From NCBI GenBank assembly GCA_051047955.1, contig JBPGPT010000006.1, forward strand, positions 434,001 to 498,000: 64,000 nucleotides of DNA. Reading direction: 5' to 3'. Below, piece by piece: positions 7,742-57,660 of the stretch (its first letter is position 1; each line of letters opens with the position of its first letter). The translations under genes and the position numbers were made by a program. Source of the stretch: Cystobasidiomycetes sp. EMM_F5 (lineage: Eukaryota). Below the pieces are notes generated by a model. That model did no database searches. It saw only the letters and a program-made list of their open reading frames with translations, and was not told where the DNA came from.

Positions 7742-8779
7742 CTAGTATCCCATCGCATTGGGCGCGCTTTCGCCCTCCCGCTTCAGGCTAAGAATAACCT
7801 CCTTCATCCTACTGACGTCTTTCGTGCCTTTTGCAGCCGTCTTGCTTCTGCTGTCCTGCAGGTCTATAATGTCTGCGATCCGCTCCCAGGTAGTTCCCTT
7901 CCCGAGAGCGTCGTCCCTAGTACGCGTAAAAGCGGCTTCATTCTCCTTGTTTTGTGCAATCTGCTTCTCCTTCTTCTGATTGTACGAGTGGTAGAAGTCA
8001 TCGATGGCTCGCTCCGCTTTTCGAATCATTTCTTCCTTCTTTTCGGACGAACGCTGGTCTCGGTCCGCTATTTCGTCTTGCTGCCTAGCGCGCCATGCTC
8101 TGTGGCGGCGGCTTAAATGACTGCATATTTCGAGACGTACAACAGTACTTACTGTATCGCTTCAGACTCTGGTTCTGCAGGTTGTGAGCTGTAGGTTGCG
8201 GGTTGCGAGTATGATGATTGCGTAGCATGACCATTCTAGAGGCGGGCATCAGGTTGGCAATGCTGTCACAATAAACGTGAGCATTAACGCTCACCTGTTG
8301 TGCAGCTGGGGCTGCTTGCTCCTGCTGGACCGGATATGGCTGCAAGTCGGGATACTGAGACTGGAAGTGATGTATGGCAGGATCGTTATCGTCATCATCC
8401 TCAATGATTGCGCTGGAGCTTGGCTTAGGAGCTGCTGGTGGTTCACGCTGGAATGACGATACAAAGTCGCTTGATGGCTTGGTTTGTTGGGTTGTTGGGC
8501 TGGTCACGGCTGGCGACGATTGACCGCCGAAATCATCGTCGAGAGCTGGGAACCCGCTGAGTGCTTTGGTGTCGGTACCAGGACTGGTCAGGCCCGCTGG
8601 GACCCCGCCAAACTCGTCGCCCAGGAGCTCCCGCTCGCGCGCCAGAAAGTCACTCTGTGATCCGCCAGCTGAAGCGCCAAAGTCGTTGTCGAAATCGTCC
8701 AGCTAGCACGACATGAGCAGTCAGCATCAAGGGCTGTCGTGTATCGGTATATTTTGCCTACAGCAGGGAAATTCGACAT
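7742..8779 (-). CDS. CLC1: Clathrin light chain
   Basis: Acidic N-terminus (DFLARERELLGDEF), central coiled region, and GTTWERIADIIDL...DVSRMKEVILSLKR near the C-terminus. Confidence 0.88.
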
Positions 8780-34401: not shown

Positions 34402-35592
34402 ATGCGTTACTCTTCCCTTGCTGTAGCTGGTAGTGTACTAGCAGCTTCTGTTGCTGCTGCACCCTACAATCCGTTCCCGCTCAATATCACCGGGTTCCCG
34501 AACGCAACAGCAAGCCAAGTAGCCACCATTCAGCAGCAAGCAGGTGGTTCTTTACCCAACGGCGGACTGCCATCAAGCTTGTCAGACGCAGCCACGCTTA
34601 CTCTCCAGCTCATCGCACTCAACGAAAACTTTGAGGTTGCATACTTTAATCAATTGGTGAACAACATCACTACTGGCGTCAGCGGATATTCAGCAGACGG
34701 CAATGGATTGAACCGGACTTACGTTCTTCAGACTCTCCAAGCTATCCTCGCTGTACGTATGACCCATCTTCACTCAGCAAGTATATATGGCTGACCACGT
34801 TTTGGCGATGTAGCAAGAGCAACTTCATGCTTTGGGTGCCAACGCCATCCTGTCCAATGCAGGAAAGACGCCCATACAGACGTGCAGCTACAATTTTCCA
34901 GTGTCCAGTTTCCAGGGTGCCATCGGTCTGGCCAACGCTTTCACAGACCTAGTTCTCTCCGTGTTACCCTTGGCGCAGGTTACGTTCGCTCAGGATGGTG
35001 GTCAGGAAGTTGGTCTCGTCCAGCTGGTTGGTTCCATCATTGCGCAAGAGGCTCAGCAAGATGGATGGTTCCGCTCCGTCCAAGGCAAGACTGCGTCTGC
35101 TGCTCCATTCTTGACTACCTCCGGGCCATCATTCGCTGTGAGTAGCATCTTGTGAACGTCGCGTATCCGATGACTGATCTTCTCGGTTCCTCACAGCTAT
35201 CGCTCCTGCAGCAGGTCATTGTTCCAGGATCATGCCCCAACATTAACTTGATCACGTCCAAGCTGCCGTCCTTCAGCCCATTGAACGTCCTTACCGCAAA
35301 TATCCCAGCTTCCAACACGACAGTTCAGTTCAGCGCATCTGGCAACGTCTCGAGCTCGGCGAACTCGATTGTCTACCTCTCTGGTCAGAATGTCCCAGTC
35401 ACAGTACCGATTACCAGTGTCAACATGACTGGCAACGTCACGACCTTCTCCGCGTCCCTGCCATTTTCAGCCGGTTTCGCCAAGGGATTGACGGTTGCTG
35501 CTCTCGTCAAGGGCGCTGGTCAAACCTTTGCAAATGCATCAGCTGTCGCCGCAGCAACGTTAGCCGGACCGGGTCTCCTCGAGATTGCTTGA
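34402..35592 (+). CDS. Secreted ferritin-like domain protein (LsdA/Rds1-like), copy 2
   Basis: Paralog of 32761-33959 with LQLIALNENFEVAYF, QEQLHA and SIIAQEAQQDGWFR. Same two intron positions. Confidence 0.78.
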
Positions 35593-43375: not shown

Positions 43376-44651
43376 GGTGAACGGGCTGGGACTGCGAGAC
43401 CTGCCGGGAGTGGACGAGACTGGTCCTTAGGATGTGCTGTCTGCGTGTAGCTGCAGTGCTGGTCGCCCACGCTTTTTTGCAGCTGTATTGGTCTGCGGTC
43501 GAGGGACTGGATCAACCTAAATCGACCCGGGATCGCTGACCACGCGGAGGGTTGTGTGTTTTGGGCTTTGCAGGCTACCGAATGTGAGCAGCAGCCGCTG
43601 ACTTTGTCGTTTATCGATGTTGGTGCAGCGTCAAGACTTGCCGTCAAAGCCTGCCAGCGATAGGCCACCCTCGCTTGCTTGAAATGCTGCTGACTGTCCG
43701 CCCAGTGGCGTTACTGACCTCGAATGTTTAGAAGTGACCAACAGAGATGGCTAATGATTCGGAAGCTAGCAGCAAGACGCACTTGCGATATATCGGATAA
43801 ATGATCTTCTCTGTTCTCTAGCAGGACCCGTTGGTGTCTAGGCGGAATTCCTGCCCCGCTTGGCCAGGAAACTTGTTTGCAAGCAGAACGAATACATAAC
43901 AAGGACGACAGCGCTCGAATACGATGCTGATAGAAAGGCACTGCAACTCTCCTCTATTCGAGTTAAAGAAAATACTGCATACTCCACGCTCGAAGTGAGA
44001 TCCGACGCTCCGGCCTCACGCGGCGTTTCCAGCAAACAACGGAAGGCCTTTCACATAGTTCCAATCGAGCTAGTTTACCACTCGGTGCCTGCTTCTGCGA
44101 GTTGTTTGTCCCATTTGATATGGAAACGCTTGTCCCGCAAAGCATTACTAAAGAGTTAAGGCAGTGAAAGCCGTAATGCGCAGTGACAAAGACTGTGGTG
44201 TTGACGGCAGATAGCATTGTCAAACATTGCTTCGATGCTCTCTGCCAAAGTCGCTCCGGCGAATAGCCAAACCTTCCCAAGGCCATGAGCGCTCAAAATT
44301 ACTGGACAGCACAAAGGCAAGATCACCGTGAACGCTCATTCCACATGAAGTATTGCATCAAACTCGTATTTCATTTCATGACTATCCTTTAGTGTATTTC
44401 AATTGCTCGTACAACGTTTTTTCGAGGAGGTGACGGGTAAAAAGAGTTTCATTATACTGATTGCGGACGAGGATAGGTTTGGGATACTACGCGGTCGAGT
44501 GTCTGAATGTTCTGGTCTGCTTCAGGCTATGCTGCAGCTGGCTTTCTCTTGCCAACATTATTTCCCCCAAATACCATTTCCTCTTGATCCTTTATTCTTT
44601 CTATGGTATTCAGATTGCACGAATCCTGCACTCTCACAGTGCACCATGCAT

Positions 44652-47600
44652 TTACAGCTCCTTTTTGACACTCCTGCTAGCTTCTGCTGCCGATTTGGAG
44701 GCAGACACGGAAGCCGACGAGAGGGACTTGGATGCGTGTACGGACGCGCTCGACAGGGATTTGGAGGCCTCTACGCTTGCAGATGAGAGAGACTTGGAGA
44801 GCTCCGAAGAGTGGGAGACTGACGATTTCGAGAGACTAATTGCGCGTGCGGAGGCGACAGACGATACGGAACTGGCAAGGGATGAGGCAGACTTGCTCAA
44901 CGAGCTGGCCGCATGCGAAGCAGAATACGAGGCTGCTGATGCCAGCGACGAAGCCGATGAAGACAACTTGCTGGCGAGCGAAGTGGCGGAGACGGAAGCT
45001 ACCGAGGCGGTGGATGAAGCGGATGCAGACAGCGAGCTGTAATAGGACGAGGCAGACTTGCTTGCAGAGGAAGCTGCCGAAGATGCTTCTACCGATGCAC
45101 GAGACAGGGAACTGCTAGCGTGCTTGCTGGCCGAGGATGAGAGGGACGATGCCGAAGATGGATCGTATCCAGCCGACGAAGCAGATTTGCTCAATGACGA
45201 GATGGACGACTGAGCAGATTTGCTTGCACTGGAAAGGGAGGATTGAGCGCTGACAGACGCGACAGAAGCTGCAGACGAAGCGGAAGCCGAGAGAGCAGAA
45301 AGCGCGCTGAATGCAGATTTGGAGGCGACAGATGCGGCAGATACAGCAGATTTGGAAGCTACGGAAGCAGCAGAAGATCCACTGGCAGATGCCGACACTG
45401 CAGACTTGGACGCAGATACACTTGCAACAGAAGCAGCAGAGACGGCCGACTTGCTAGCTACGGAAGCCAATGACGAGATGGACGACGGGTCGGTGACACC
45501 AGCTGCAAATCCCCTCGCCTCGCTGGCAAGGGAAGTAGCGTGCTTGGAGGCTTCAGAGTAAAGGGACGAAGCCGAAGCGGAAGCTTGAGAAGCATAAGGA
45601 GCAGCAGTCTTGCTTGCAGCAGACGCAGCACTTGATCCGCTCTTGCTCGCGACGGATGCAGCGCTCGATCCAGACGCAGAGACGGTAGAGAGGAGATCCT
45701 CTCCGGAAACGGAAGCCTGGTTGTAGACATATTTGCCTTTGAGGCCCGCTTCTTCGCCGTAGCCGCCGAAAGTGCTGCCACCGACTGCACCTTGCAGGAT
45801 GGCGAGGGCTTCTCTGACCTTGTCCTCTGCAATGTGAGTACCAGCTGCTACCCATTCCTGGACTGATCCGAGGAGGCCACCAAGACCGCCAGCAGCAACA
45901 ACGTAGTTATCCTTCATGAGTTGGATGAGTTCTGCACGTTTGCTGTTCATGGGGACGTTGATGCCATTGGAGCGAAGCCATCCTCTGATACGGTTGTCAG
46001 TCCACGAGAGGTAATCGTAGGTCTTTGAAGAAGTGGTAGAGTAGTGCTTGGAGAAGAGAGTCTTGACATCATCAGCTTTCAGCTGGACGTCAGACTTGAG
46101 GTAGCCGTGCTTGACGAGCCAGTCGCGCATCTCAGTCTGCTTCCATGCCTGGTCGACGTTGTCGGGCAGTTTGTTCCAGTTGGTCTCGAGTAAGTTCTCC
46201 ATCTTGTCGCGAGTCAAGCCAGCTGCTTCAGCTTGGCTGACGAGCTGGTTCTTGACGAGGTAAGCGCGGGTCTGTGCGTCCGACCAGGTATCCCAGAGAC
46301 GGTCGTTGGCGGAGTAGTAGTAGGATTTCATGGTAGACAGCAGACTGAGCGTGCGACTAACGTCAGCCTGCAGTGCAAGTCACATATTATAATACTGGAA
46401 CCCACTCATCACGCTTTGCCTCAACGGGCGTCTTGATGAGTCCCTTCTTTTCGAGCCAGCTGCGGAGGGTGTTGTCATCCCAAGCCTGGTAAGCGGTATC
46501 ACGGAGCGAGTAGTAATTGTCATCGAGGATCTTGGTCAGTGAATCCTTTGTCGCCTTTGCATCCGACTTGATGAGACCTCTGGAGATTGCCCAGTTTCTC
46601 AGCTGAGACTCAGACCAGGAGTGGTATGTTGTGTCCTTGGCAGAATAATAGTTGCGCTGCATGAGGTCGATGAGATCGTCTCTAGTCTTTGCGGACTTGG
46701 TCTGTACTACGCCGCGCTTGACGAGCCATTGGCGAATGTACGAGTCTGACCACGTGTCATACACGGTACTGGATCCAGACGCGTATGCATCCTTGACACG
46801 CTTGGCCAGATCATTCTTGGTTGCTTGGACCGGAGTGTCGACAATACCCTGCGACTCGAGGTAGGCGCGCAATTGAGACTCGTTCCAAGTCGACCAGACA
46901 TAGTCCTTGGCATCATCGAGGGAGGTAGCGAGGTAGTCGTACGCCTGACGAGGTGCATCACCAGACGCATAGTATGCCTCTGTAATCTTGTTTGTAGCTT
47001 GAGCAGCCAACGATGACGCAGAAGCAGATCCAACGGAAGCGAGGGACGATGCAGAAGCAGAACCAGCAGACGCAGCAGACGAGACGGACGCAGATCCGAC
47101 TGAAGCGTACGAACCACCCTGGGCTAGCTTTTGTTTGGCAAGTATGCGCAACTCTTCGGGCTTGCTCTTGGGCGAGACGATTCCATGCTTGAGGAGGAAC
47201 TCGCGCAGCTCGCTGTCGGTCCATGCGTCGACAATCTTGTTGTGCGAGACAGGTGTGGCCTGGGCATTGTACGCTGCTTGGGCGCGGGTGGCTTGCGCTC
47301 CCAAGTACGAGTTTGCGGTTCCCCAAGCGCCTCGAACTTGGTCAACAAGCTCGTCGCGCGTGGATTTGGGTTTGGGAAGGATGTGGTGGTCCTGTCGAAC
47401 ACATCAAGCGGTAGAGGTGGGGGAGGTCAAGGAGAGAAGAGTAGAGTAGAAATCCAAGCACATGAGTACATGGAGTTTGCAATCAGCAGAGAAGTAGAGT
47501 GAAGAACAGACGGGGTTGGGTAGGAAGAGTATGAAAAGAACCACAAAGACGAAATTTGCGACCAGTGGAGGAGTGTGAAAAGGCGAATAACGAGGGGAGA

Positions 47601-48247
47601 GATGGGGAGTATGGACAAAATCACACAGGATGTAGGAGTCGTGAGTGTCAATCGTCAGAATAATCCTCCCAATCTACATCCCCCACTCACCACCAGCCAG
47701 TCGTGCAAGTCGGAGTCTTCCCAGTTTACGTACGCGCTATCGTAGCTTCTCCTGATTGCCTTGATTGCGCGGTCTCTTGTATTGGGCGTGGGGGTAGGAA
47801 TGAGGGAGTTTGACGACATCCACGACTTGATGTCCGTCTCGGTCCTGAGTTTTGAGATCAGTCGTTGCCTTGCACCATCACACGCCTCGACAACTCACCA
47901 CTTGTCGTACGCAGAGTCGTAGTTTGACTTTACGAGGTCTCTGAGCTGCTCGGTCGACAGTTTGCCTGGAGTGTGTGCGCGGTCAGACGGTGACGTGGAG
48001 GGGATACTCTGCAAACCACGCCTACCAGGATTGGGCACCTTGTGGTCGGTGAGCCATCTCTCGAGCTGCGAGTTGTCCCAGTCGTGCCATGCGGGGACTG
48101 GGTGCACGACAGAGTTAGCATGTTCCAGTTAATGCAGAGGGTGTCAATCATGATATTCAAATGCTCACCGTCTCTTGTGAATAGCCCCGCACTTGCAGAC
48201 TGCGCGCAGGCAGCGAGCATGCACAGTGACAGTGCAGAGACGCGCAT
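44652..48247 (-). CDS. Ish1/Msc1-type repeat protein (ER/nuclear envelope lumen) with Ser/Ala-rich tail and C-terminal KKEL
   Basis: Signal peptide and repeated W(S/T)xSxLrxWLxxxG...RDxLxx motifs (e.g. DAWTDSELREFL, STWNESQLRAYL, DTWSDSYIRQWL). Ends in SVKKEL-TAA. Confidence 0.82.
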
Positions 48248-48489
48248 GGTGGGTGTGGGTGCAATAAGTTGTGCAGACTAGAGAGGTAGGACTGGCCAGA
48301 TCGACGTGCAAGAGAAGGAGAAAATGACAGGCACAGGAACGGAAAGTGACGTCAGGGGGAATAGGAGGAGGAAAGGTGAGATCATGGGAATGATTAGTCA
48401 GCTACAACCTCGATCACCCTGTACGCGCCGATGCGACTGCCATTGTGTTTGTGGGTGGATTAGTCAGGGCACACTCCTCACTCACAACC

Positions 48490-51400
48490 ATGGCAGACGA
48501 TATCGACATTGACATCGACACTGAGACTGACCCGGTACTGGCTGCAGCACTGCGAGAACACGCAAGGCTGGTCAGGGAGCAAGCAAAGGCAGAGCAAGCG
48601 CGGATTATTGCAGAGTACAGAGCAGCACGGACGAGCAACACAGACAAGGTGCTCGCTGGGCCAAGTCCGAGTCCGGCAAAGCGAGTAAAGGCTGCCATAA
48701 ATGTGTCAAGGTCGAGCAAGCCGAAGCGGCTGTTTGGAGTCGAGTCGACGGTCCTCGAGGCGGAAGCGAGACTGGCGTACATGCCGAGTCCCAAAGAGTC
48801 TGAGCTCGAGGTGCAGCTCGAGAGGGAGCGGAGCAGGCAGAAGCGGGCAGGCGAGAGGAGGGGCGTGCAGAGGAGTACTGCATTCGACCAGACGCCTGCA
48901 ATCACGAGCACGTCTGCGAGGAGCGACACTACACCCGACGATGCATACACTCCCATACGAAACGAACGAAACGACGACCTCACAGTCGTACACAACCTCC
49001 AGCACTGTCCGGTAGACTATACACCCCCAGCAGACGATCCACTCTTTTTAAAGTATGAACCCAACAGCGGGACAAGACTGAGGTGGGCAATCTCACTCTC
49101 TCCTCTATGACTGCCGATAGATGCCTGACTTTTGCACGCGCGCCGTTTCTTCTTCTCCGACACGCAAATTGTTTCAATTATACTACTCTCCTCATTCGAC
49201 GCATTCTCCATGAATGCATATTCCCTCTACGTCTTTTATGTTTGCCCAACAACTACATTCCGAACGACTATACTCTTTCCTGTTTCCCCCTGGTGCTCCG
49301 TTTCCCTTTATATCATCTGCTGATCCTTTACTTGCAACGTATCTAATCTTATTAATTTCACCCTCTGTGCTCTATTTCCCTCATTATTACGACCTTACCC
49401 TCCTTGTGTCATTTGTTGCTCTTCTACATTACATTCATCAACACTCACAGAGACCGCAAGTTGCCGCACGAAGATCTTCAAGAGTACCTATCCGCACGAT
49501 ACTTTGTATCTCCCGAGATGCTGTACGCGCTCGTTCGGACCATTAAGGGCGGCACAGAGTACGAGATGCCACTAGAGGGCGACTGGGTGCTCATCGGCGT
49601 TCTTGCCGAAAAGTCCGAGATTCGAATGACTGGATCTGGGAGTGCCCTTCTCGCCAAACGAAACAAGACATTATCGAGAGAGGAAAAGACTCGCCTAAAG
49701 GACAAGAAGGAAGCAATGAAGGCTCTGGATGTGGATGGCGAAGCGGCATCGGATGACGAACTAAAAGCTGCCGCTAGTTCAGGAGACGAAGCCATCGCGT
49801 CAAAAGCTGCAGCAGCGACTCCCGCACAGAGAAGGTACATTTCCTTCAAGTTGCTCGATATGCGAAACAAGAATGCAGGTGGTGGTGCGGGAATCCTGGC
49901 GCTCAAGCTCTTTGAAGCCGACCCGAAGCACGAACGAGTGAAGAAGGCCGCAGAGTCGGATGAGGAGATTGTCACAAAGACTGGAGTAAGGATGAGGAAG
50001 GAGAAGAAGCTGTATAGAGATGATGGAAAGTTGGATGTTGCGCAGACGACATCGCACAAGGGTGGCAGCGGAGGGGCATACGAAAAGTTTTGGAAGGAGA
50101 GAAACGGAACGGTCGTGGCTATTCTCAATCCGAGATTAATGAAGCCCTGGACGGTATGTCGCGCTAAAATATGAACTTTGATGGACTTCCAACCGGCTGA
50201 CTTGCTGCGCGCAACAGGGCGGATTCGGTCAAGGCTCGAACGCAAACGTCATTGCGCTCACGCCCGAGTCTGCAGAATCAATGGTCATTATCGGTCGTTC
50301 GGAAGATCTAGGCTCATGTCAGGCAATGAAGAAAGATGGACAGTTGTGCGGTGCATGGTGTGATCTGTAAATACTTCGCTTTCGCAAGGGCATGATACAA
50401 GCGTCAGATCTAACAGAACGCACATGACAGACGAAGCGGGACAGCGTGCGAGTATCACGTCCAGCAAGCCATCAAGAATAGGCGAGCGGCAAGACCAGAG
50501 TTTTATGCCGGGACGAGCGGAATGAATACCACTTCCACCAGTGCCAACTTTGATAAACTCACTTCGGCAAAGAATGGGCATCGAAAAGTGCCAAATGGGC
50601 AGTATGTGCATGCTGGCAATAGCACGATCTCATCGTCGAGAAGCATAAATGGTGTGCCGTATGATCCTGAAAACCGCTATGGCTTGCTTCCTCCAGCTGG
50701 TGCAGCGGCCCGCAGTCTAGATGGCACAAAAACATACGTCGTCGCGTCAACAACACAACCTGGCATACAGGGCACAAGTCATGCGCTTCGAAATCGACGA
50801 AATAACATGAACGGCGTGTCCAGAGCAAGCTACGTCGATGCTCCAAAAGTGCGAGGCGAGGTCGATCCAAAAGAGCGAGCTAAACGACGAGAAAGGGAGG
50901 AATCGCAAATGTGTAGGATCCTTCAGCGAGATGGTGGTAATTCTCTTGGTGCCAAGTATCTGGCTCGCAATGGGACCGTCAAGACCGTCCCCGGAAGAGA
51001 TGATAGCGAGACGGCGGACCAATCTGATCATCAGCCCAGCGAAGCAGTCCAGGACGGTGCAAGGAAGCGAGTCTTCAACGTTGCTGCCATGCGGAGGATC
51101 GGCTTTGATCCCACAAGTGCTAGTGGTGACCAGCCGAAAGCCAAGAAAATGAAGAACGTGAGTATGCTGATTGTCAGCTGTCTATTCCTGTTGGGCTGAA
51201 ATGAGGAAATCTGCAGGACGATGCTTTGAAAGCCCTGGAGAACCCAAGTAAGAACGTGGAGCCAAAGCTGAATCGTCCTCCTGGCGAGAAGGTGCGGTCA
51301 GGCGTGACCGTACCACCGGGTGCGCAGAAGCTGAGCAAGTCTAGGCGCCGTCCTCATCAGCCTGAGGCGGTAGACGACTGGGACGAGCTAGACGCGGAAC

Positions 51401-51567
51401 ATACTCGACGATCGTTCCTACTCGATGACGGTGGTGATGCCATGCACAAGAAGCCCAAGGCAGATCCAGGCTTCCTGTGGAGCAGTGACGATGAAGGAGA
51501 AGATCAATACCTTGCAAATGCGGACGCAGATTCGGACGATGATTTAGAAATTGAGCCGCCTGCTTGA
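48490..51567 (+). CDS. MCM10: Minichromosome maintenance protein 10
   Basis: EPNSGTRLR|DRKLPHEDL, GDWVLIGVLAEKS (OB fold), GTVVAILNP and a zinc finger DLGSCQAMKKDGQLCGAWCD...CEYH. Confidence 0.9.
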
Positions 51568-51747
51568 GAAATCATCACTGTAGCTTTCCAGATCATACAG
51601 GTCGCTGTGTAGCCATATTATTGTTGTGTATGATATTCTGCCGATCCCCTCTCGATTTCAGGTACACATCTGATTTGCCATGTCGACGTAGCCCAGGTTG
51701 GCAGCGGCTGCCATCTCTTGCTTCTGCCGATACGCATTCCATCCACC

Positions 51748-56273: not shown

Positions 56274-57539
56274 ATGGCCTCCAATGTTCATAGCACCATT
56301 CCCAGGCTCTCCCGAATCGCTCGTTCAGCAAAGTGCAGCTGCCGCCGGCTCCACCTGGACAGCCGACAGTCGCAAACGCTGCTAGAAAAGGTACGCTGGC
56401 TGGCTGCCCTGGATATCTAGCTAAATCCACGGCACAGTACGGCTTGTCCACATCTGAAGCGAGCTCGTCCATCCGGAACCAAGATACCTGGACTCTGCGA
56501 CTGCTGCCGTCGCGGGCCTTTCACAAACCTGTCCTTGTGTGCAAATCAGCCAAGGGCACAGAAAGCACCTTAGAACTCGATATCAATAATGAAGAAGTTG
56601 ACTCGGGCGGATTTCGCGTTTGGGCAAGCGATATGCACGTGGAGGCCGACCAGGTGAACGGCCTTCATGATATTGTCCAAAAGGTGTGGAAGGCTTGGCG
56701 CGGTGTGGATGCGATACAGATAGCATGCAATGTATCCGTGCGGAACAATGCATGGAAGGTGTAAGCCTTGTTGCTGCTGCTTGTCCCCACACCCAAAGCG
56801 TGAGCTAATCTGACGTGGAAACAGGGAATCTCCGACTGTAGAGATAGACAATTTTGCCTTCTATCGTCAGCCTGATCTGGCAGCTTTGGCCCCACATGCA
56901 CCCGCGCATCCGCTCGAAAAGCAAGCAGACCAGGACAACTTGTTTTACGTAAAGCATAAAGGTGGTAACATCGGGTGCTACGGTTACGGAGCGGGCAACG
57001 GAATGGCTACACTTGACGTGCTGGCCTCGATGGGCGCTAAGGTGCGTTCGCGCTTTTCAAGCTTCGATTCCCCGCTGACTTTGTCGAACGTAAAAAGCCC
57101 GCCAATTTTCTGGATGGAGGAGGCGGAGCTACCCCTCGGAATGTCCAGGCTGCTCTTGAAGTTCTAGCCGCAGACACTGATGTTCGAGCTATCTTCATCA
57201 ACGCTTTTGGCGGTCTTACAAAAGTAGTGAGTCCTGCGTGGTTTGGCAAACAAGCTCTTTAATCGATCTATTGCGTTGAAGGATCTCATCGCCAAAGGCC
57301 TTCTCGAATTTGCAAAAGCAAGAGAGGCGGCTGGTAATAAGATTGCGCCTGTCATAGCACGTCTGCGGGGAACCGGCGAGCAAGACGCGAACGATTTAGT
57401 AGGTAATAATGTAAATCTAAACAGGAGTGCCTCATGTAACACCTTCCTACAGCTAAATGGGCCGGAAGGTCTTCCATATATACAAGCGGTCAAAGACTTG
57501 GAAGAAGCGGCGCTAGCAGTCGCCCGCCTGGCTACATAG
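56274..57539 (+). CDS. Divergent succinyl-CoA-synthetase beta-like subunit with truncated ATP-grasp domain
   Basis: Presequence ...RRLHLDSRQSQTLLEK|YG, IDNFAFYRQPDL, GNIGCYGYGAGNGMATLD, PANFLDGGGGA, FINAFGG and VIARLRGT. Confidence 0.85.
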
Positions 57540-57551
57540 TATGATGTGATT

Positions 57552-57619
57552 CAACACAACACAACACAACACAACACAACACAACACAACACAATACAAC
57601 ACAACACAACACAACACAA
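57552..57619. repeat. (CAACA)n pentanucleotide microsatellite, ~13.5 copies
   Basis: Seen directly, with one C>T interruption at 57595. Lies between two convergent stop codons. Confidence 0.97.
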
Positions 57620-57660
57620 TTAAATTAGGATAGAATGTAAAGACCATACAATCACTGTTA

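What the first reader, a model, noticed from the sequence alone, without database searches (positions are those of the whole stretch)
49083..49450. MCM10 intron with a 5'-proximal branch motif and a 328-nt AG-free tract
Seen in the sequence: a 368-nt intron (GTGGGC at 49083, CAG ending 49450) whose removal restores SGTRLR|DRKLPHE. The last internal AG is at 49119-49120, CCTGAC follows at 49124-49129, and no AG dinucleotide occurs from 49121 to 49448 in a pyrimidine-rich tract. Most introns in the window are 50-80 nt. Established knowledge: long AG-exclusion zones mark distant branch points in vertebrate introns and are linked to regulated splicing. Inference: the branch point keeps normal spacing from the donor while the branch-to-acceptor segment has expanded under selection against AG, implying long-range scanning or a functional lariat tail. 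Alternative branch-like motifs exist (GCTGAT ~49319, TCTAAT ~49342), but they are also more than 100 nt from the acceptor.
Basis: partly seen in the sequence, partly recalled or inferred. Interest (0 to 1): 0.7.

Follow-up and report, generated by a model that had tools for sequence, protein, structure and literature searches.

The report
Long AG-free intron in fungal MCM10
A fungal replication gene carries an old intron that has grown to six times its usual length without acquiring a single internal splice-acceptor signal after its first branch-site motif, a design known from vertebrates, but where the branch actually forms is unproven.

Summary
49083-49450 is a real 368-nt phase-2 intron of MCM10. 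Exon 1 ends at residue 188 and exon 2 starts at residue 190 of the Mixia osmundae protein. The only internal AG is at 49119. CTGAC follows at 49125-49129, 45 nt from the donor, and 328 pyrimidine-rich bases without AG run to the acceptor.

This is not a composition effect. Ten other pyrimidine-rich stretches in the window carry AG at the expected rate, and shuffles and a Markov model almost never give such a tract.

Three results are new:
- The neighbouring Ish1-repeat gene has a 299-nt intron of the same build.
- Among 69 donor-plus-branch-motif pairs in the window, these two are isolated outliers (263 and 322 nt to the first AG; all others are 51 nt or less).
- The orthologous MCM10 intron in 14 other fungal loci is 42-119 nt.

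Best reading: an expanded ancient intron whose donor-proximal branch site is competent, so AG is purged downstream (an AG exclusion zone). Whether exon ligation really spans 322 nt is unproven. No RNA data or genome were available, and weaker branch motifs lie 53-127 nt from the acceptor. This is a probable new fungal member of a known vertebrate-type architecture and of moderate interest.

The parts
48490..49082 (+). MCM10 exon 1 (ATG at 48490; ends with 2 bases of a split Arg codon)
   Evidence: Open frame and splice model. It aligns to P0003 residues 98-188 and ends at the conserved EPxSGxRL motif.
49083..49450 (+). MCM10 intron 1, 368 nt, phase 2, GTGGGC...CAG
   Evidence: Removal gives exact colinearity with orthologues. 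Introns at the same position in 14 other fungal loci are 42-119 nt.
49119..49120 (+). Last internal AG, 5 nt upstream of the CTGAC motif
49125..49129 (+). CTGAC, consensus fungal branch motif. The A at 49128 is 45 nt from the donor and 322 nt from the acceptor. This is the proposed distant or early branch site.
   Evidence: The spacing equals the donor-to-branch median of 46 nt in 23 short introns. Not mapped experimentally.
49121..49448 (+). 328-nt AG-free, 70% pyrimidine tract (proposed AG exclusion zone)
49320..49324 (+). CTGAT, alternative branch motif, 127 nt from the acceptor
49343..49347 (+). CTAAT, alternative branch motif, 104 nt from the acceptor (a TTAAT follows at 95 nt)
49394..49398 (+). 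CTTAC, minor-type branch motif 53 nt from the acceptor (CTHAH class reported in Fusarium)
   Evidence: PMC5677156 passages.
49451..50153 (+). MCM10 exon 2 (start of the OB-fold region)
   Evidence: Pfam MCM10_OB 3.9e-08. It aligns to P0003 from residue 190.
50154..50217 (+). MCM10 intron 2, an ordinary 64-nt intron (GTATGT, CTGAC 17 nt from the acceptor) used for contrast
50367..50430 (+). MCM10 intron 3, 64 nt, CTAAC 17 nt from the acceptor. An AG 3 nt after the branch A is skipped.
   Evidence: only the 50430 acceptor keeps the frame open.
51158..51216 (+). MCM10 intron 4, 59 nt, CTGAA 17 nt from the acceptor
47392..47690 (-). Second intron of the same build, in the divergent Ish1-repeat gene: 299 nt, GTGAGT...CAG, phase 0
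   Evidence: The spliced repeat is colinear with five other Ish1 repeats. Pfam Ish1 matches on both flanking exons.
47654..47658 (-). CTGAC in the second intron. The A at 47655 is 35 nt from the donor and 263 nt from the acceptor. The last AG (47667-66) lies 7 nt upstream.
47394..47665 (-). 272-nt AG-free, 72% pyrimidine tract of the second intron
   Evidence: (47 of 20000 shuffles AG-free).

Best explanation
This is an ancient, position-conserved MCM10 intron that has grown in this lineage from the usual 45-120 nt to 368 nt. About 320 nt of pyrimidine-rich sequence were added between an intact 5' module (donor plus CTGAC branch motif at the normal 45-nt spacing) and the original acceptor.

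The donor-proximal CTGAC is competent for branching, and the spliceosome takes the first usable AG downstream of a branch. Any AG arising in the added segment would therefore cut the intron short and frameshift an essential replication gene. Such AGs are removed by selection. That leaves an AG exclusion zone, and the true acceptor is the first AG after the branch site, 322 nt away.

The pyrimidine richness may serve as a very long polypyrimidine tract. It may equally be a by-product, because purine-poor sequence offers fewer routes to AG.

Shown: the intron itself, its exact junction, its expansion relative to orthologues, AG-specific depletion beyond composition, and a second intron of the same design.

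Inferred: selection as the cause, use of CTGAC as a branch site, and exon ligation across 322 nt.

My odds: about 0.75 that the AG-free state is maintained by splicing-related selection anchored at the CTGAC, and about 0.45 that the productive lariat forms there.
For: 1. The junction is exact against the Mixia orthologue and the motif is shared by other orthologues.

2. The orthologous intron is 42-119 nt in all 14 loci analysed. Of the 18 of 31 loci examined where the flanking motif was found, 17 are interrupted at this position and 1, L005, reads through.

3. AG is specifically absent. It is 0 against 6.8 expected while GA is 8 against 6.8. Only 5 of 20000 shuffles are AG-free, and 28 of 20000 whole-intron shuffles have 1 AG or fewer. 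A Markov model trained on control regions gives 0 of 20000.

4. Composition-matched control inside the window: 10 other pyrimidine-rich regions hold 57 AG against 49.3 expected.

5. Of 69 GTRNGY-plus-CTRAY pairs in the window, the distance from the branch A to the first AG has a median of 17 nt. The largest of the rest is 51 nt, then the values jump to 263 and 322. Of 113 such pairs in 166 kb of other fungal DNA, none reaches 60 nt.

6. The AG-free zone covers sequence upstream of the alternative motifs: 213 nt in MCM10 (71 of 20000 shuffles) and 167 nt in the Ish1 intron (781 of 20000).

7. In both introns the last AG lies 5-7 nt before the CTGAC, and donor-to-CTGAC is 45 and 35 nt. Short introns have a median of 46 nt.

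8. Short introns carry 0.052 AG per nt upstream of the branch site and are 51% pyrimidine. AG is therefore not avoided in 5'ss-to-branch segments.

9. There is no CTRA[A/C/T] motif within 95 nt of the MCM10 acceptor. All 23 short introns have one at 11-35 nt, though that set was partly chosen by motif.

10. Precedent: distant branch points 25-41 nt from the 5'ss with an AG exclusion zone of about 280 nt in vertebrate OGDH (PMC7969005, passages). Early or distal branching was detected in 63 S. pombe and 104 C. neoformans introns, mostly in those longer than 150 nt (bioRxiv 10.1101/224170, passages).
Against: - There is no experimental branch mapping or RNA evidence of any kind.

- Fungal 3' splice sites far from the branch point are rare and inefficient. 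In S. pombe about 40 of about 5250 introns have a spacing of 30 nt or more (PMC9508853). The preprint on C. neoformans calls distances above 50 nt possibly prohibitive for the second step.

- Neither intron shows a structure that would shorten the distance (z 0.18 and -1.06).

- Downstream candidates exist. MCM10 has CTGAT at 127, CTAAT at 104, TTAAT at 95, CTCAT at 67 and CTTAC at 53 nt from the acceptor. The Ish1 intron has TTGAC at 35 and TTGAT at 12 nt, which is a normal position.

- In fungi polypyrimidine tracts usually lie upstream of the branch site (PMC5677156).

- Long AG-free pyrimidine-rich tracts also occur outside recognisable introns in other fungi: 427 nt and 193 nt just before an HMG-box gene's start codon, with no GTRNGY donor.

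- Only 64 kb of this genome could be examined, and the short-intron set was hand-picked.
Confidence: 0.45

Rival explanations
1. The productive branch forms at a downstream motif. In MCM10 the candidates are CTAAT, TTAAT or CTGAT at 95-127 nt, or CTTAC or CTCAT at 53-67 nt. In the Ish1 intron they are TTGAC or TTGAT at 12-35 nt. The donor-proximal CTGAC is then only an 'early branching' decoy. AG is still purged from the whole tract, because CTGAC plus any downstream AG would form a complete short intron and produce a mis-spliced mRNA. The pyrimidine tract lies mostly upstream of the real branch site, as is usual in fungi.
For: - The motif positions are.
- TTRAY and CTHAH are accepted minor fungal branch motifs, and polypyrimidine tracts lie 83% upstream of the branch site in Fusarium (PMC5677156).
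- Distal branching alongside a second branch was seen in long introns of C. neoformans and S. pombe (10.1101/224170).
- Long branch-to-acceptor spacing weakens splicing in S. pombe (PMC9508853).
Against: - In MCM10 even the nearest accepted motif is 53 nt from the acceptor. That is beyond all 67 other donor-plus-CTRAY pairs, which reach at most 51 nt. It is also beyond the 11-35 nt range of the short introns. This reading therefore still needs an unusually distant branch.
- It needs two functional branch sites where one would do.
Confidence: 0.3
2. The AG-free state has nothing to do with splice-site choice. The tract would be a pyrimidine-rich insert with its own origin or role. One possibility is a CT-rich promoter-like or protein-binding element, perhaps an internal start site giving an N-terminally shortened MCM10. 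In that case the lack of AG is inherited from the source sequence or comes from its motif make-up.
For: - Other fungal loci have AG-free pyrimidine-rich tracts of 193 and 427 nt directly upstream of an HMG-box gene's ATG, with no canonical donor.
- A 108-nt tract of this kind lies in the shared 5' region at 48401-48294.
- The two long introns sit symmetrically about 560-590 nt downstream of the start codons of two divergent genes.
Against: - Ten other pyrimidine-rich regions in this same window have normal AG counts, 57 against 49.3 expected.
- GA and AA are not depleted.
- About 100 single-base changes could create an AG in the tract: 64 A and 35 G, none forming AG. A neutral tract would therefore not stay AG-free for long.
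- The zone begins within 7 nt of the first CTGAC in both introns.
- The two tracts share no sequence.
Confidence: 0.12
3. Chance: an unusually long intron that happens to lack AG.
For: The tract was noticed after the fact, in one window that holds many introns.
Against: - The shuffle and model probabilities run from 0 of 20000 to 28 of 20000 (1.4e-3) for MCM10.
- An independent second case has 47 of 20000.
- Both are isolated outliers among 69 motif pairs.
Confidence: 0.03

Closest known systems
Vertebrate distant-branch-point / AG-exclusion-zone introns, e.g. OGDH intron 4a 'dBP/megaPPT' (PMC7969005, passages read; the original AGEZ survey by Gooding et al. 2006 is recalled, not seen)
   Same: Branch sites lie a few tens of nt from the 5' splice site (25-41 nt in OGDH; 45 and 35 nt here). 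They are followed by a very long pyrimidine-rich tract with no AG (about 280 nt in OGDH; 328 and 272 nt here). The first AG is the acceptor.
   Different: In vertebrates the branch points are mapped and the design enforces mutually exclusive exons. Here nothing is mapped and there is no alternative exon (no internal acceptor is possible). The host is a fungus whose normal introns are about 60 nt, and the donor-to-branch spacing is the normal one rather than sterically too short.
'Early/distal branching' in long introns of S. pombe and Cryptococcus neoformans, found by spliceosome profiling (bioRxiv 10.1101/224170, passages read)
   Same: These are fungal introns longer than 150 nt, including those of a basidiomycete, in which a branch site far from the acceptor is recognised.
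   Different: That study reports branch usage, not AG exclusion, and suggests that distances above 50 nt may block the second step. Here the evidence is the reverse: sequence-level AG purging with no branch data.
Branch-point-distant 3' splice sites in S. pombe that need Sde2, Cactin/Cay1 and Tls1 (PMC9508853, passages read)
   Same: The spacing between branch and acceptor is longer than normal in an intron-rich fungus, with a possible dependence on dedicated second-step helpers.
   Different: 'Distant' there means about 20-30 nt or more. Here it would be 53-322 nt. Whether this organism has these factors was not tested.
S. cerevisiae introns with long branch-to-acceptor distance bridged by RNA structure (PMC3239191, search listing and abstract only)
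   Same: The acceptor is far from the branch site in a fungus.
   Different: Those depend on a stem that shortens the effective distance. Both introns here fold no better than shuffles (z 0.18 and -1.06).
The orthologous MCM10 intron in other fungi (metagenome loci L001-L031)
   Same: It has the same position (after the EPxSGxRL motif). The donor lies 2 bases past the motif, giving the same phase 2, in 13 of the 14 analysed loci (L016 was read at offset 0).
   Different: It is 42-119 nt long. CTRAY lies within 34 nt of the acceptor in 8 of the 14 analysed loci, and internal AGs are present in most.

Membership tests
U2-type GT-AG spliceosomal intron | GT donor and AG acceptor whose removal restores a frame colinear with orthologous proteins | tested here: met
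   GTGGGC at 49083 and CAG ending at 49450. Exon 1 aligns to P0003 residue 188 and exon 2 from residue 190. The donor fits the GTRNGY pattern of other introns in the window; GTGGGT is used at 46405.
U2-type GT-AG spliceosomal intron | Branch-site motif (fungal CTRAY) inside the intron | tested here: met
   CTGAC, CTGAT and CTAAT are present. Which one is used is unknown.
Distant-branch-point / AG-exclusion-zone intron | AG-free zone upstream of the acceptor far longer than the genome's norm and longer than composition predicts | tested here: met
   The zone is 328 nt, against a median first-AG distance of 17 nt and a next-largest of 51 nt. Shuffle, Markov and composition-matched controls agree.
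Distant-branch-point / AG-exclusion-zone intron | Consensus branch motif at the 5' edge of the AG-free zone, followed by a pyrimidine-rich tract | tested here: met
   The last AG is at 49119-20, CTGAC is at 49125-29, and the tract is 70% pyrimidine. The second intron shows the same arrangement.
Distant-branch-point / AG-exclusion-zone intron | Experimentally mapped lariat branch at the distant site | not testable with these tools
   No RNA run was listed and no genome was held.
Distant-branch-point / AG-exclusion-zone intron | Link to regulated or alternative splicing | not testable with these tools
   There are no transcript data. An in-frame alternative donor exists at 49053, but it would delete a conserved motif.
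Structure-bridged long branch-to-acceptor introns (S. cerevisiae type) | A stable stem between branch site and acceptor that shortens the effective distance | tested here: not met
   The minimum free energy is -39.2 kcal/mol against a shuffle mean of -39.95 (z 0.18). The second intron has z -1.06.
Introner-like or other mobile-element insertion | Multiple similar copies | tested here: not met
   There is no significant similarity between the two introns, to the rest of the window, or to 166 kb of other fungal loci. There are no tandem repeats. Only 64 kb of the genome could be searched.
Intron-hosted non-coding RNA (e.g. snoRNA) | Match to a known RNA family | tested here: not met
   0 Rfam matches at E <= 1 over 47200-49700 on both strands.
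U12-type (minor) intron | Rigid [AG]TATCCTT donor (consensus recalled, not from a call) | tested here: not met
   The donor reads GTGGGCAA.

The most novel reading that the evidence does not exclude
This basidiomycete lineage, whose ordinary introns are about 60 nt, has a class of constitutive introns built like vertebrate distant-branch-point introns. The lariat forms at the normal donor-proximal site. The second step then reaches an acceptor 260-320 nt away across an unstructured, AG-free megapolypyrimidine tract. This is far beyond the spacing thought workable in fungi. It may make expression of genes such as MCM10 depend on dedicated second-step factors or on slow, regulated exon ligation.
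Probability: 0.35. Interest if true: 0.7.

Novelty: new member of a known kind. Interest (0 to 1): 0.5.

Why it matters
Work on 3' splice-site choice in fungi assumes short branch-to-acceptor spacing. In the S. pombe study read here, only about 40 of about 5250 introns have 30 nt or more. The spliceosome-profiling preprint suggests that more than 50 nt may block the second step.

If the branch really forms at 49128, this intron and its neighbour would show two things. A fungal spliceosome could find an acceptor more than 250 nt away without help from RNA structure. AG exclusion zones would also not be a vertebrate speciality.

The two introns offer a simple natural test bed for scanning versus diffusion models of acceptor choice: two short genes, one motif to mutate and one AG to insert.

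If the branch turns out to be 3'-proximal, the finding still has value. It would then show sequence-level purging of decoy acceptors caused by 'early branching', an event so far seen only in profiling data.

Tried and rejected
- RNA evidence: the look-up of sequencing runs listed no RNA holder for 48490-50153, so read laying could not be used.
- Whole genome: none is held.
- Alternative donor GTATGA at 49053: it is in frame and 30 nt upstream. I rejected it as the main donor because it would delete the conserved EPNSGxRL motif.
- Acceptor at the tandem AG 49451-52: rejected by reading the sequence, because it shifts the frame into a stop. No call tested this.
- Mobile element or repeat: rejected.
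- Intron-hosted RNA: no Rfam match.
- Structure bridging: rejected.
- U12-type intron: rejected on the donor sequence.
- Automatic intron catalogue: the ORF-bounded search gave 83 clusters with many false positives. A codon-bias filter was too strict and left 10 clusters. I therefore used 25 clusters with a flanking ORF of 140 codons or more and then a hand-picked set of 23. That set was chosen partly for having a plausible branch motif, so its '23 of 23 with a motif' is circular. The 69-pair analysis does not depend on it.
- Scan for other long single introns of 131-800 nt: apart from the MCM10 intron it returned only candidates with 10-55 internal AGs and about 50% pyrimidine. The two I checked by coordinates are composites of two short introns plus an exon (34753-35196 and 50154-50464). 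The Ish1 intron was missed because its upstream ORF is under 70 codons.
- Earlier findings of this scan: three look-ups gave nothing relevant.
- Closest relatives: P0001 and P0002 (40-44% identity) begin with what looks like read-through of sequence upstream of exon 2. Their DNA could not be fetched, so the orthologous intron in near relatives remains unseen.
- Literature on a fungal AG exclusion zone: four searches were run. These were 'ag exclusion zone' + 'branch point' + 'fungi' (3 papers); 'distant branch point' + 'yeast' (32 papers, 15 listed); 'polypyrimidine tract' + 'fungal introns' + 'branch' (4 papers); and 'spliceosome profiling' / 'cryptococcus' / 'branchpoint' (56 papers, 10 listed). 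By titles and abstracts none describes an AG exclusion zone in a fungus. The supplements of the bioRxiv preprint, which hold its distance distributions, could not be seen.
Full report
**What is there**

The stretch 49083-49450 on the + strand is 368 nt. It begins GTGGGC and ends CAG, and it holds AG only at 49119-20 and at the acceptor 49449-50. From 49121 to 49448 there are 328 bases (T126, C103, A64, G35; 70% pyrimidine) with no AG. CTGAC lies at 49125-29, CTGAT at 49320-24 and CTAAT at 49343-47.

**The gene and the junction**

- The flanking exons belong to MCM10. Pfam finds MCM10_OB in exon 2 (3.9e-08). It also finds the primase-type zinc finger, split over exons 3 and 4 (3.5e-08 and 0.006).
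- A five-exon model (48490-49082, 49451-50153, 50218-50366, 50431-51157, 51217-51570) gives one open frame of 841 codons.
- The nearest proteins in the large protein collection are from Pucciniomycotina-type basidiomycetes at only 28-44% identity over exon 2. The best named one is Mixia osmundae.
- By BLASTP, exon 1 aligns to the Mixia protein up to residue 188 and exon 2 from residue 190. The split codon AG|A supplies the residue in between.
- The junction motif EPxSGxRL / xRxLxHExLQ is shared by the other orthologues printed.
- An in-frame alternative donor (GTATGA at 49053) would remove this conserved motif, so it is not the main donor.

The intron and its exact ends are therefore secure without RNA data.

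**Is the AG-free tract more than chance or composition?**

- Expectation: the expected AG count from base composition is 6.8.
- Tract shuffles: 5 of 20000 mononucleotide shuffles of the tract are AG-free.
- Whole-intron shuffles: a fairer test shuffles the whole intron interior. It gives 28 of 20000 with 1 AG or fewer and 7 of 20000 with an AG-free run as long.
- AG-specific lack: GA is 8 against 6.8 expected, AA is 11 against 12.4, and CT and TC are as expected.
- Controls in the same window: ten other regions with at least about 67% pyrimidine over 150-289 nt hold 57 AG against 49.3 expected.
- Markov model: a first-order model trained on those ten regions gives 0 of 20000 AG-free sequences of 328 nt.
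- Rank in the window: the tract is the longest AG-free run on the + strand, and the next is 112 nt.

Long runs free of other dinucleotides do occur for unrelated reasons. One example is a 322-nt GT-free run in the Ser/Ala-rich coding tail of the neighbouring gene.

**A second intron of the same design**

The longest AG-free run on the minus strand (47665-47394, 272 nt, 72% pyrimidine) is also an intron, 47690-47392 (299 nt, GTGAGT...CAG).

- It lies in the divergently transcribed neighbouring gene, which encodes a protein with Ish1 repeats (Pfam Ish1, 9.6e-54 and 1.3e-07 on the two flanking exons).
- It splits one repeat, and the spliced repeat is colinear with five other repeats of the same protein.
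- Its last internal AG (47667-66) lies 7 nt before a CTGAC (47658-54). That CTGAC is 35 nt from the donor and 263 nt from the acceptor.
- 47 of 20000 shuffles of this tract are AG-free.
- The two introns share no sequence with each other, with the rest of the window or with 166 kb of other fungal DNA.

They are therefore not copies of a mobile element.

**How unusual is the design?**

On both strands of the window I took every CTRAY motif with a donor-like GTRNGY 25-55 nt upstream. There were 69 cases, chosen without regard to reading frame or acceptor. The distance from the branch A to the first downstream AG has a median of 17 nt. The values run up to 28, then 35, 42 and 51, and then jump to 263 and 322. 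The same count on 34 fungal metagenome loci (166 kb) gave 113 cases, and none reached 60 nt.

In a hand-picked set of 23 short introns of the window:
- the median length is 63 nt (range 50-122);
- donor-to-branch is 46 nt;
- branch-to-acceptor is 19 nt (range 11-35);
- pyrimidine content is 51%;
- AG density upstream of the branch site is 0.052 per nt.

This set was chosen partly because a motif was visible, so it describes the norm but does not test it. The 5' modules of the two long introns (45 and 35 nt from donor to CTGAC) look like those of ordinary short introns. At the AG density of ordinary 5' segments, the 328-nt tract would hold about 17 AGs.

**The intron is old and has expanded**

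A scan of metagenome contigs with an MCM10 alignment returned 34 loci at 24-40% identity.

- In 18 of the 31 loci I examined, the EPxSGxRL motif was found upstream of the exon-2 match.
- In 17 of those 18 the frame breaks right after it. In 1 (L005) the coding sequence runs through.
- For the 14 non-duplicate loci analysed, the homology-consistent intron is 42-119 nt. It is phase 2 in 13 of them; L016 was read at donor offset 0.
- A CTRAY motif lies within 34 nt of that acceptor in 8 of the 14, and most carry internal AGs.

These loci are distant relatives. The DNA of the closest ones (P0001, P0002) could not be fetched.

**Where is the branch point?**

This cannot be settled here. No RNA run was listed and no genome is held.

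For a donor-proximal branch:
- CTGAC is a perfect consensus at the normal spacing.
- The AG-free zone starts 5-7 nt before it in both introns.
- The zone covers sequence that a downstream branch would not need to keep AG-free. This is 213 nt between CTGAC and CTAAT in MCM10 (71 of 20000 shuffles) and 167 nt between CTGAC and CTGAT in the Ish1 intron (781 of 20000).

Against:
- Such distances are far beyond what is reported to work well in fungi. In S. pombe about 40 of about 5250 introns have 30 nt or more, and longer spacing weakens splicing unless Sde2, Cactin and Tls1 help (PMC9508853, passages).
- Neither intron folds better than shuffled sequence (z 0.18 and -1.06). The structure-bridging solution of S. 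cerevisiae (PMC3239191, abstract only) therefore does not apply.
- Weaker motifs exist nearer the acceptor. In MCM10 these are TTAAT at 95, CTCAT at 67 and CTTAC at 53 nt. In the Ish1 intron they are TTGAC at 35 and TTGAT at 12 nt.
- The TTRAY and CTHAH classes are reported as minor branch motifs in Fusarium, where polypyrimidine tracts lie mostly upstream of the branch site (PMC5677156, passages).

For MCM10 even the nearest accepted motif (53 nt) is farther than in any other case in the window. For the Ish1 intron a normal 3'-proximal branch is quite possible.

**Most likely mechanism**

Spliceosome profiling found 'early' or 'distal' branching in 63 S. pombe and 104 C. neoformans introns, especially those longer than 150 nt (bioRxiv 10.1101/224170, passages). 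In vertebrates, new AGs more than about 8-12 nt downstream of a branch point are taken as acceptors. OGDH intron 4a combines branch points 25-41 nt from the 5' splice site with an AG exclusion zone of about 280 nt (PMC7969005, passages).

Put together, the simplest account is this:
- The donor-proximal CTGAC is a competent branch site.
- Any AG downstream of it would complete a short intron and frameshift the message.
- Such AGs are therefore removed by selection.

With 64 A and 35 G in the tract and none forming AG, about a hundred single-base changes could create one. A neutral tract would not stay clean for long. That last point is inference.

I put about 0.75 on splicing-related selection anchored at the CTGAC. 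I put about 0.45 on the productive lariat forming there (322 nt) and about 0.30 on a downstream productive branch with CTGAC as a decoy.

**Caveats from other fungi**

Long AG-free pyrimidine-rich tracts are not confined to introns of this build.

- In the metagenome loci, a 427-nt tract (L031) and a 193-nt tract (L007) end right before the start codon of an HMG-box gene. Neither has a GTRNGY donor in range.
- Another tract (L030 and L014) is the antisense of coding sequence.

These tracts keep alive a reading in which the tract is a promoter-like CT-rich element. The in-window controls argue against that reading for this genome.

**Comparison with what is known, and verdict**

The design matches vertebrate distant-branch-point / AG-exclusion-zone introns in anatomy. 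Its defining functional feature, a mapped distant branch, could not be tested. None of my four literature searches turned up an AG exclusion zone described in a fungus.

I file it as a probable new fungal member of a known kind.

Noticed in passing
window 48294-48401 (-) and 48458-48467 (-): A third AG-free, 76% pyrimidine tract (108 nt) lies in the 243-nt region between the divergent MCM10 and Ish1-repeat genes. It begins with CTGACTAATC directly after an AG and ends in CAG upstream of the Ish1-gene start codon. The same 10-mer CTGACTAATC recurs about 66 nt further upstream, after a GTGAGT at 48485. It may be a 5'-UTR intron of the same design or only a CT-rich promoter.
   Followed up: partly
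window 47690 (-) and 49083 (+): The two long AG-free introns sit almost symmetrically around the shared promoter region. They begin 557 nt and 593 nt downstream of the start codons of the two divergent genes (48247 on the minus strand, 48490 on the plus strand). This gives mirrored purine/pyrimidine skew on either side. It may be coincidence or a chromatin or transcription feature.
   Followed up: no
window 49053-49058 (+): A donor-like GTATGA lies 30 nt upstream of the real donor, in the same phase. Its use with the same acceptor would delete ten residues, including the conserved EPNSG motif. It is a possible minor alternative 5' splice site.
   Followed up: partly
window 50410-50430 (+) and 46345-46363 (-): In two ordinary introns the first AG after the branch motif lies 3 nt and 6 nt from the branch A and must be skipped to keep the frame. 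The minimum usable branch-to-acceptor distance in this organism therefore seems to be above 6 nt.
   Followed up: partly
window 44650-45700 (-): The Ish1-repeat protein ends in a Ser/Ala-rich low-complexity tail of about 330 residues (SASKSA-like repeats). This produces a 322-nt GT-free run on the + strand. The protein also starts with a signal-peptide-like segment.
   Followed up: partly
window 57534-57654 (-): A TGTGT/TGTTG-type microsatellite of about 80 nt lies inside a 121-nt AG-free run.
   Followed up: no
L031 (minus strand 8114-8540) and L007 (2136-2328): In two other fungal contigs, a 427-nt and a 193-nt AG-free, about 71% pyrimidine tract ends in YAG immediately before CCACC-ATG of an HMG-box (NHP6-like) gene next to MCM10. 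No canonical donor lies upstream. It could be a CT-rich core promoter or an unusual 5'-UTR intron.
   Followed up: partly
P0001 and P0002: The two closest MCM10 relatives in the protein collection are gene calls that start with 50-75 residues unrelated to MCM10 and then run straight into the exon-2 sequence. They look like read-through of an intron at the same position, so that intron would be at least 150-225 nt long in those relatives.
   Followed up: no
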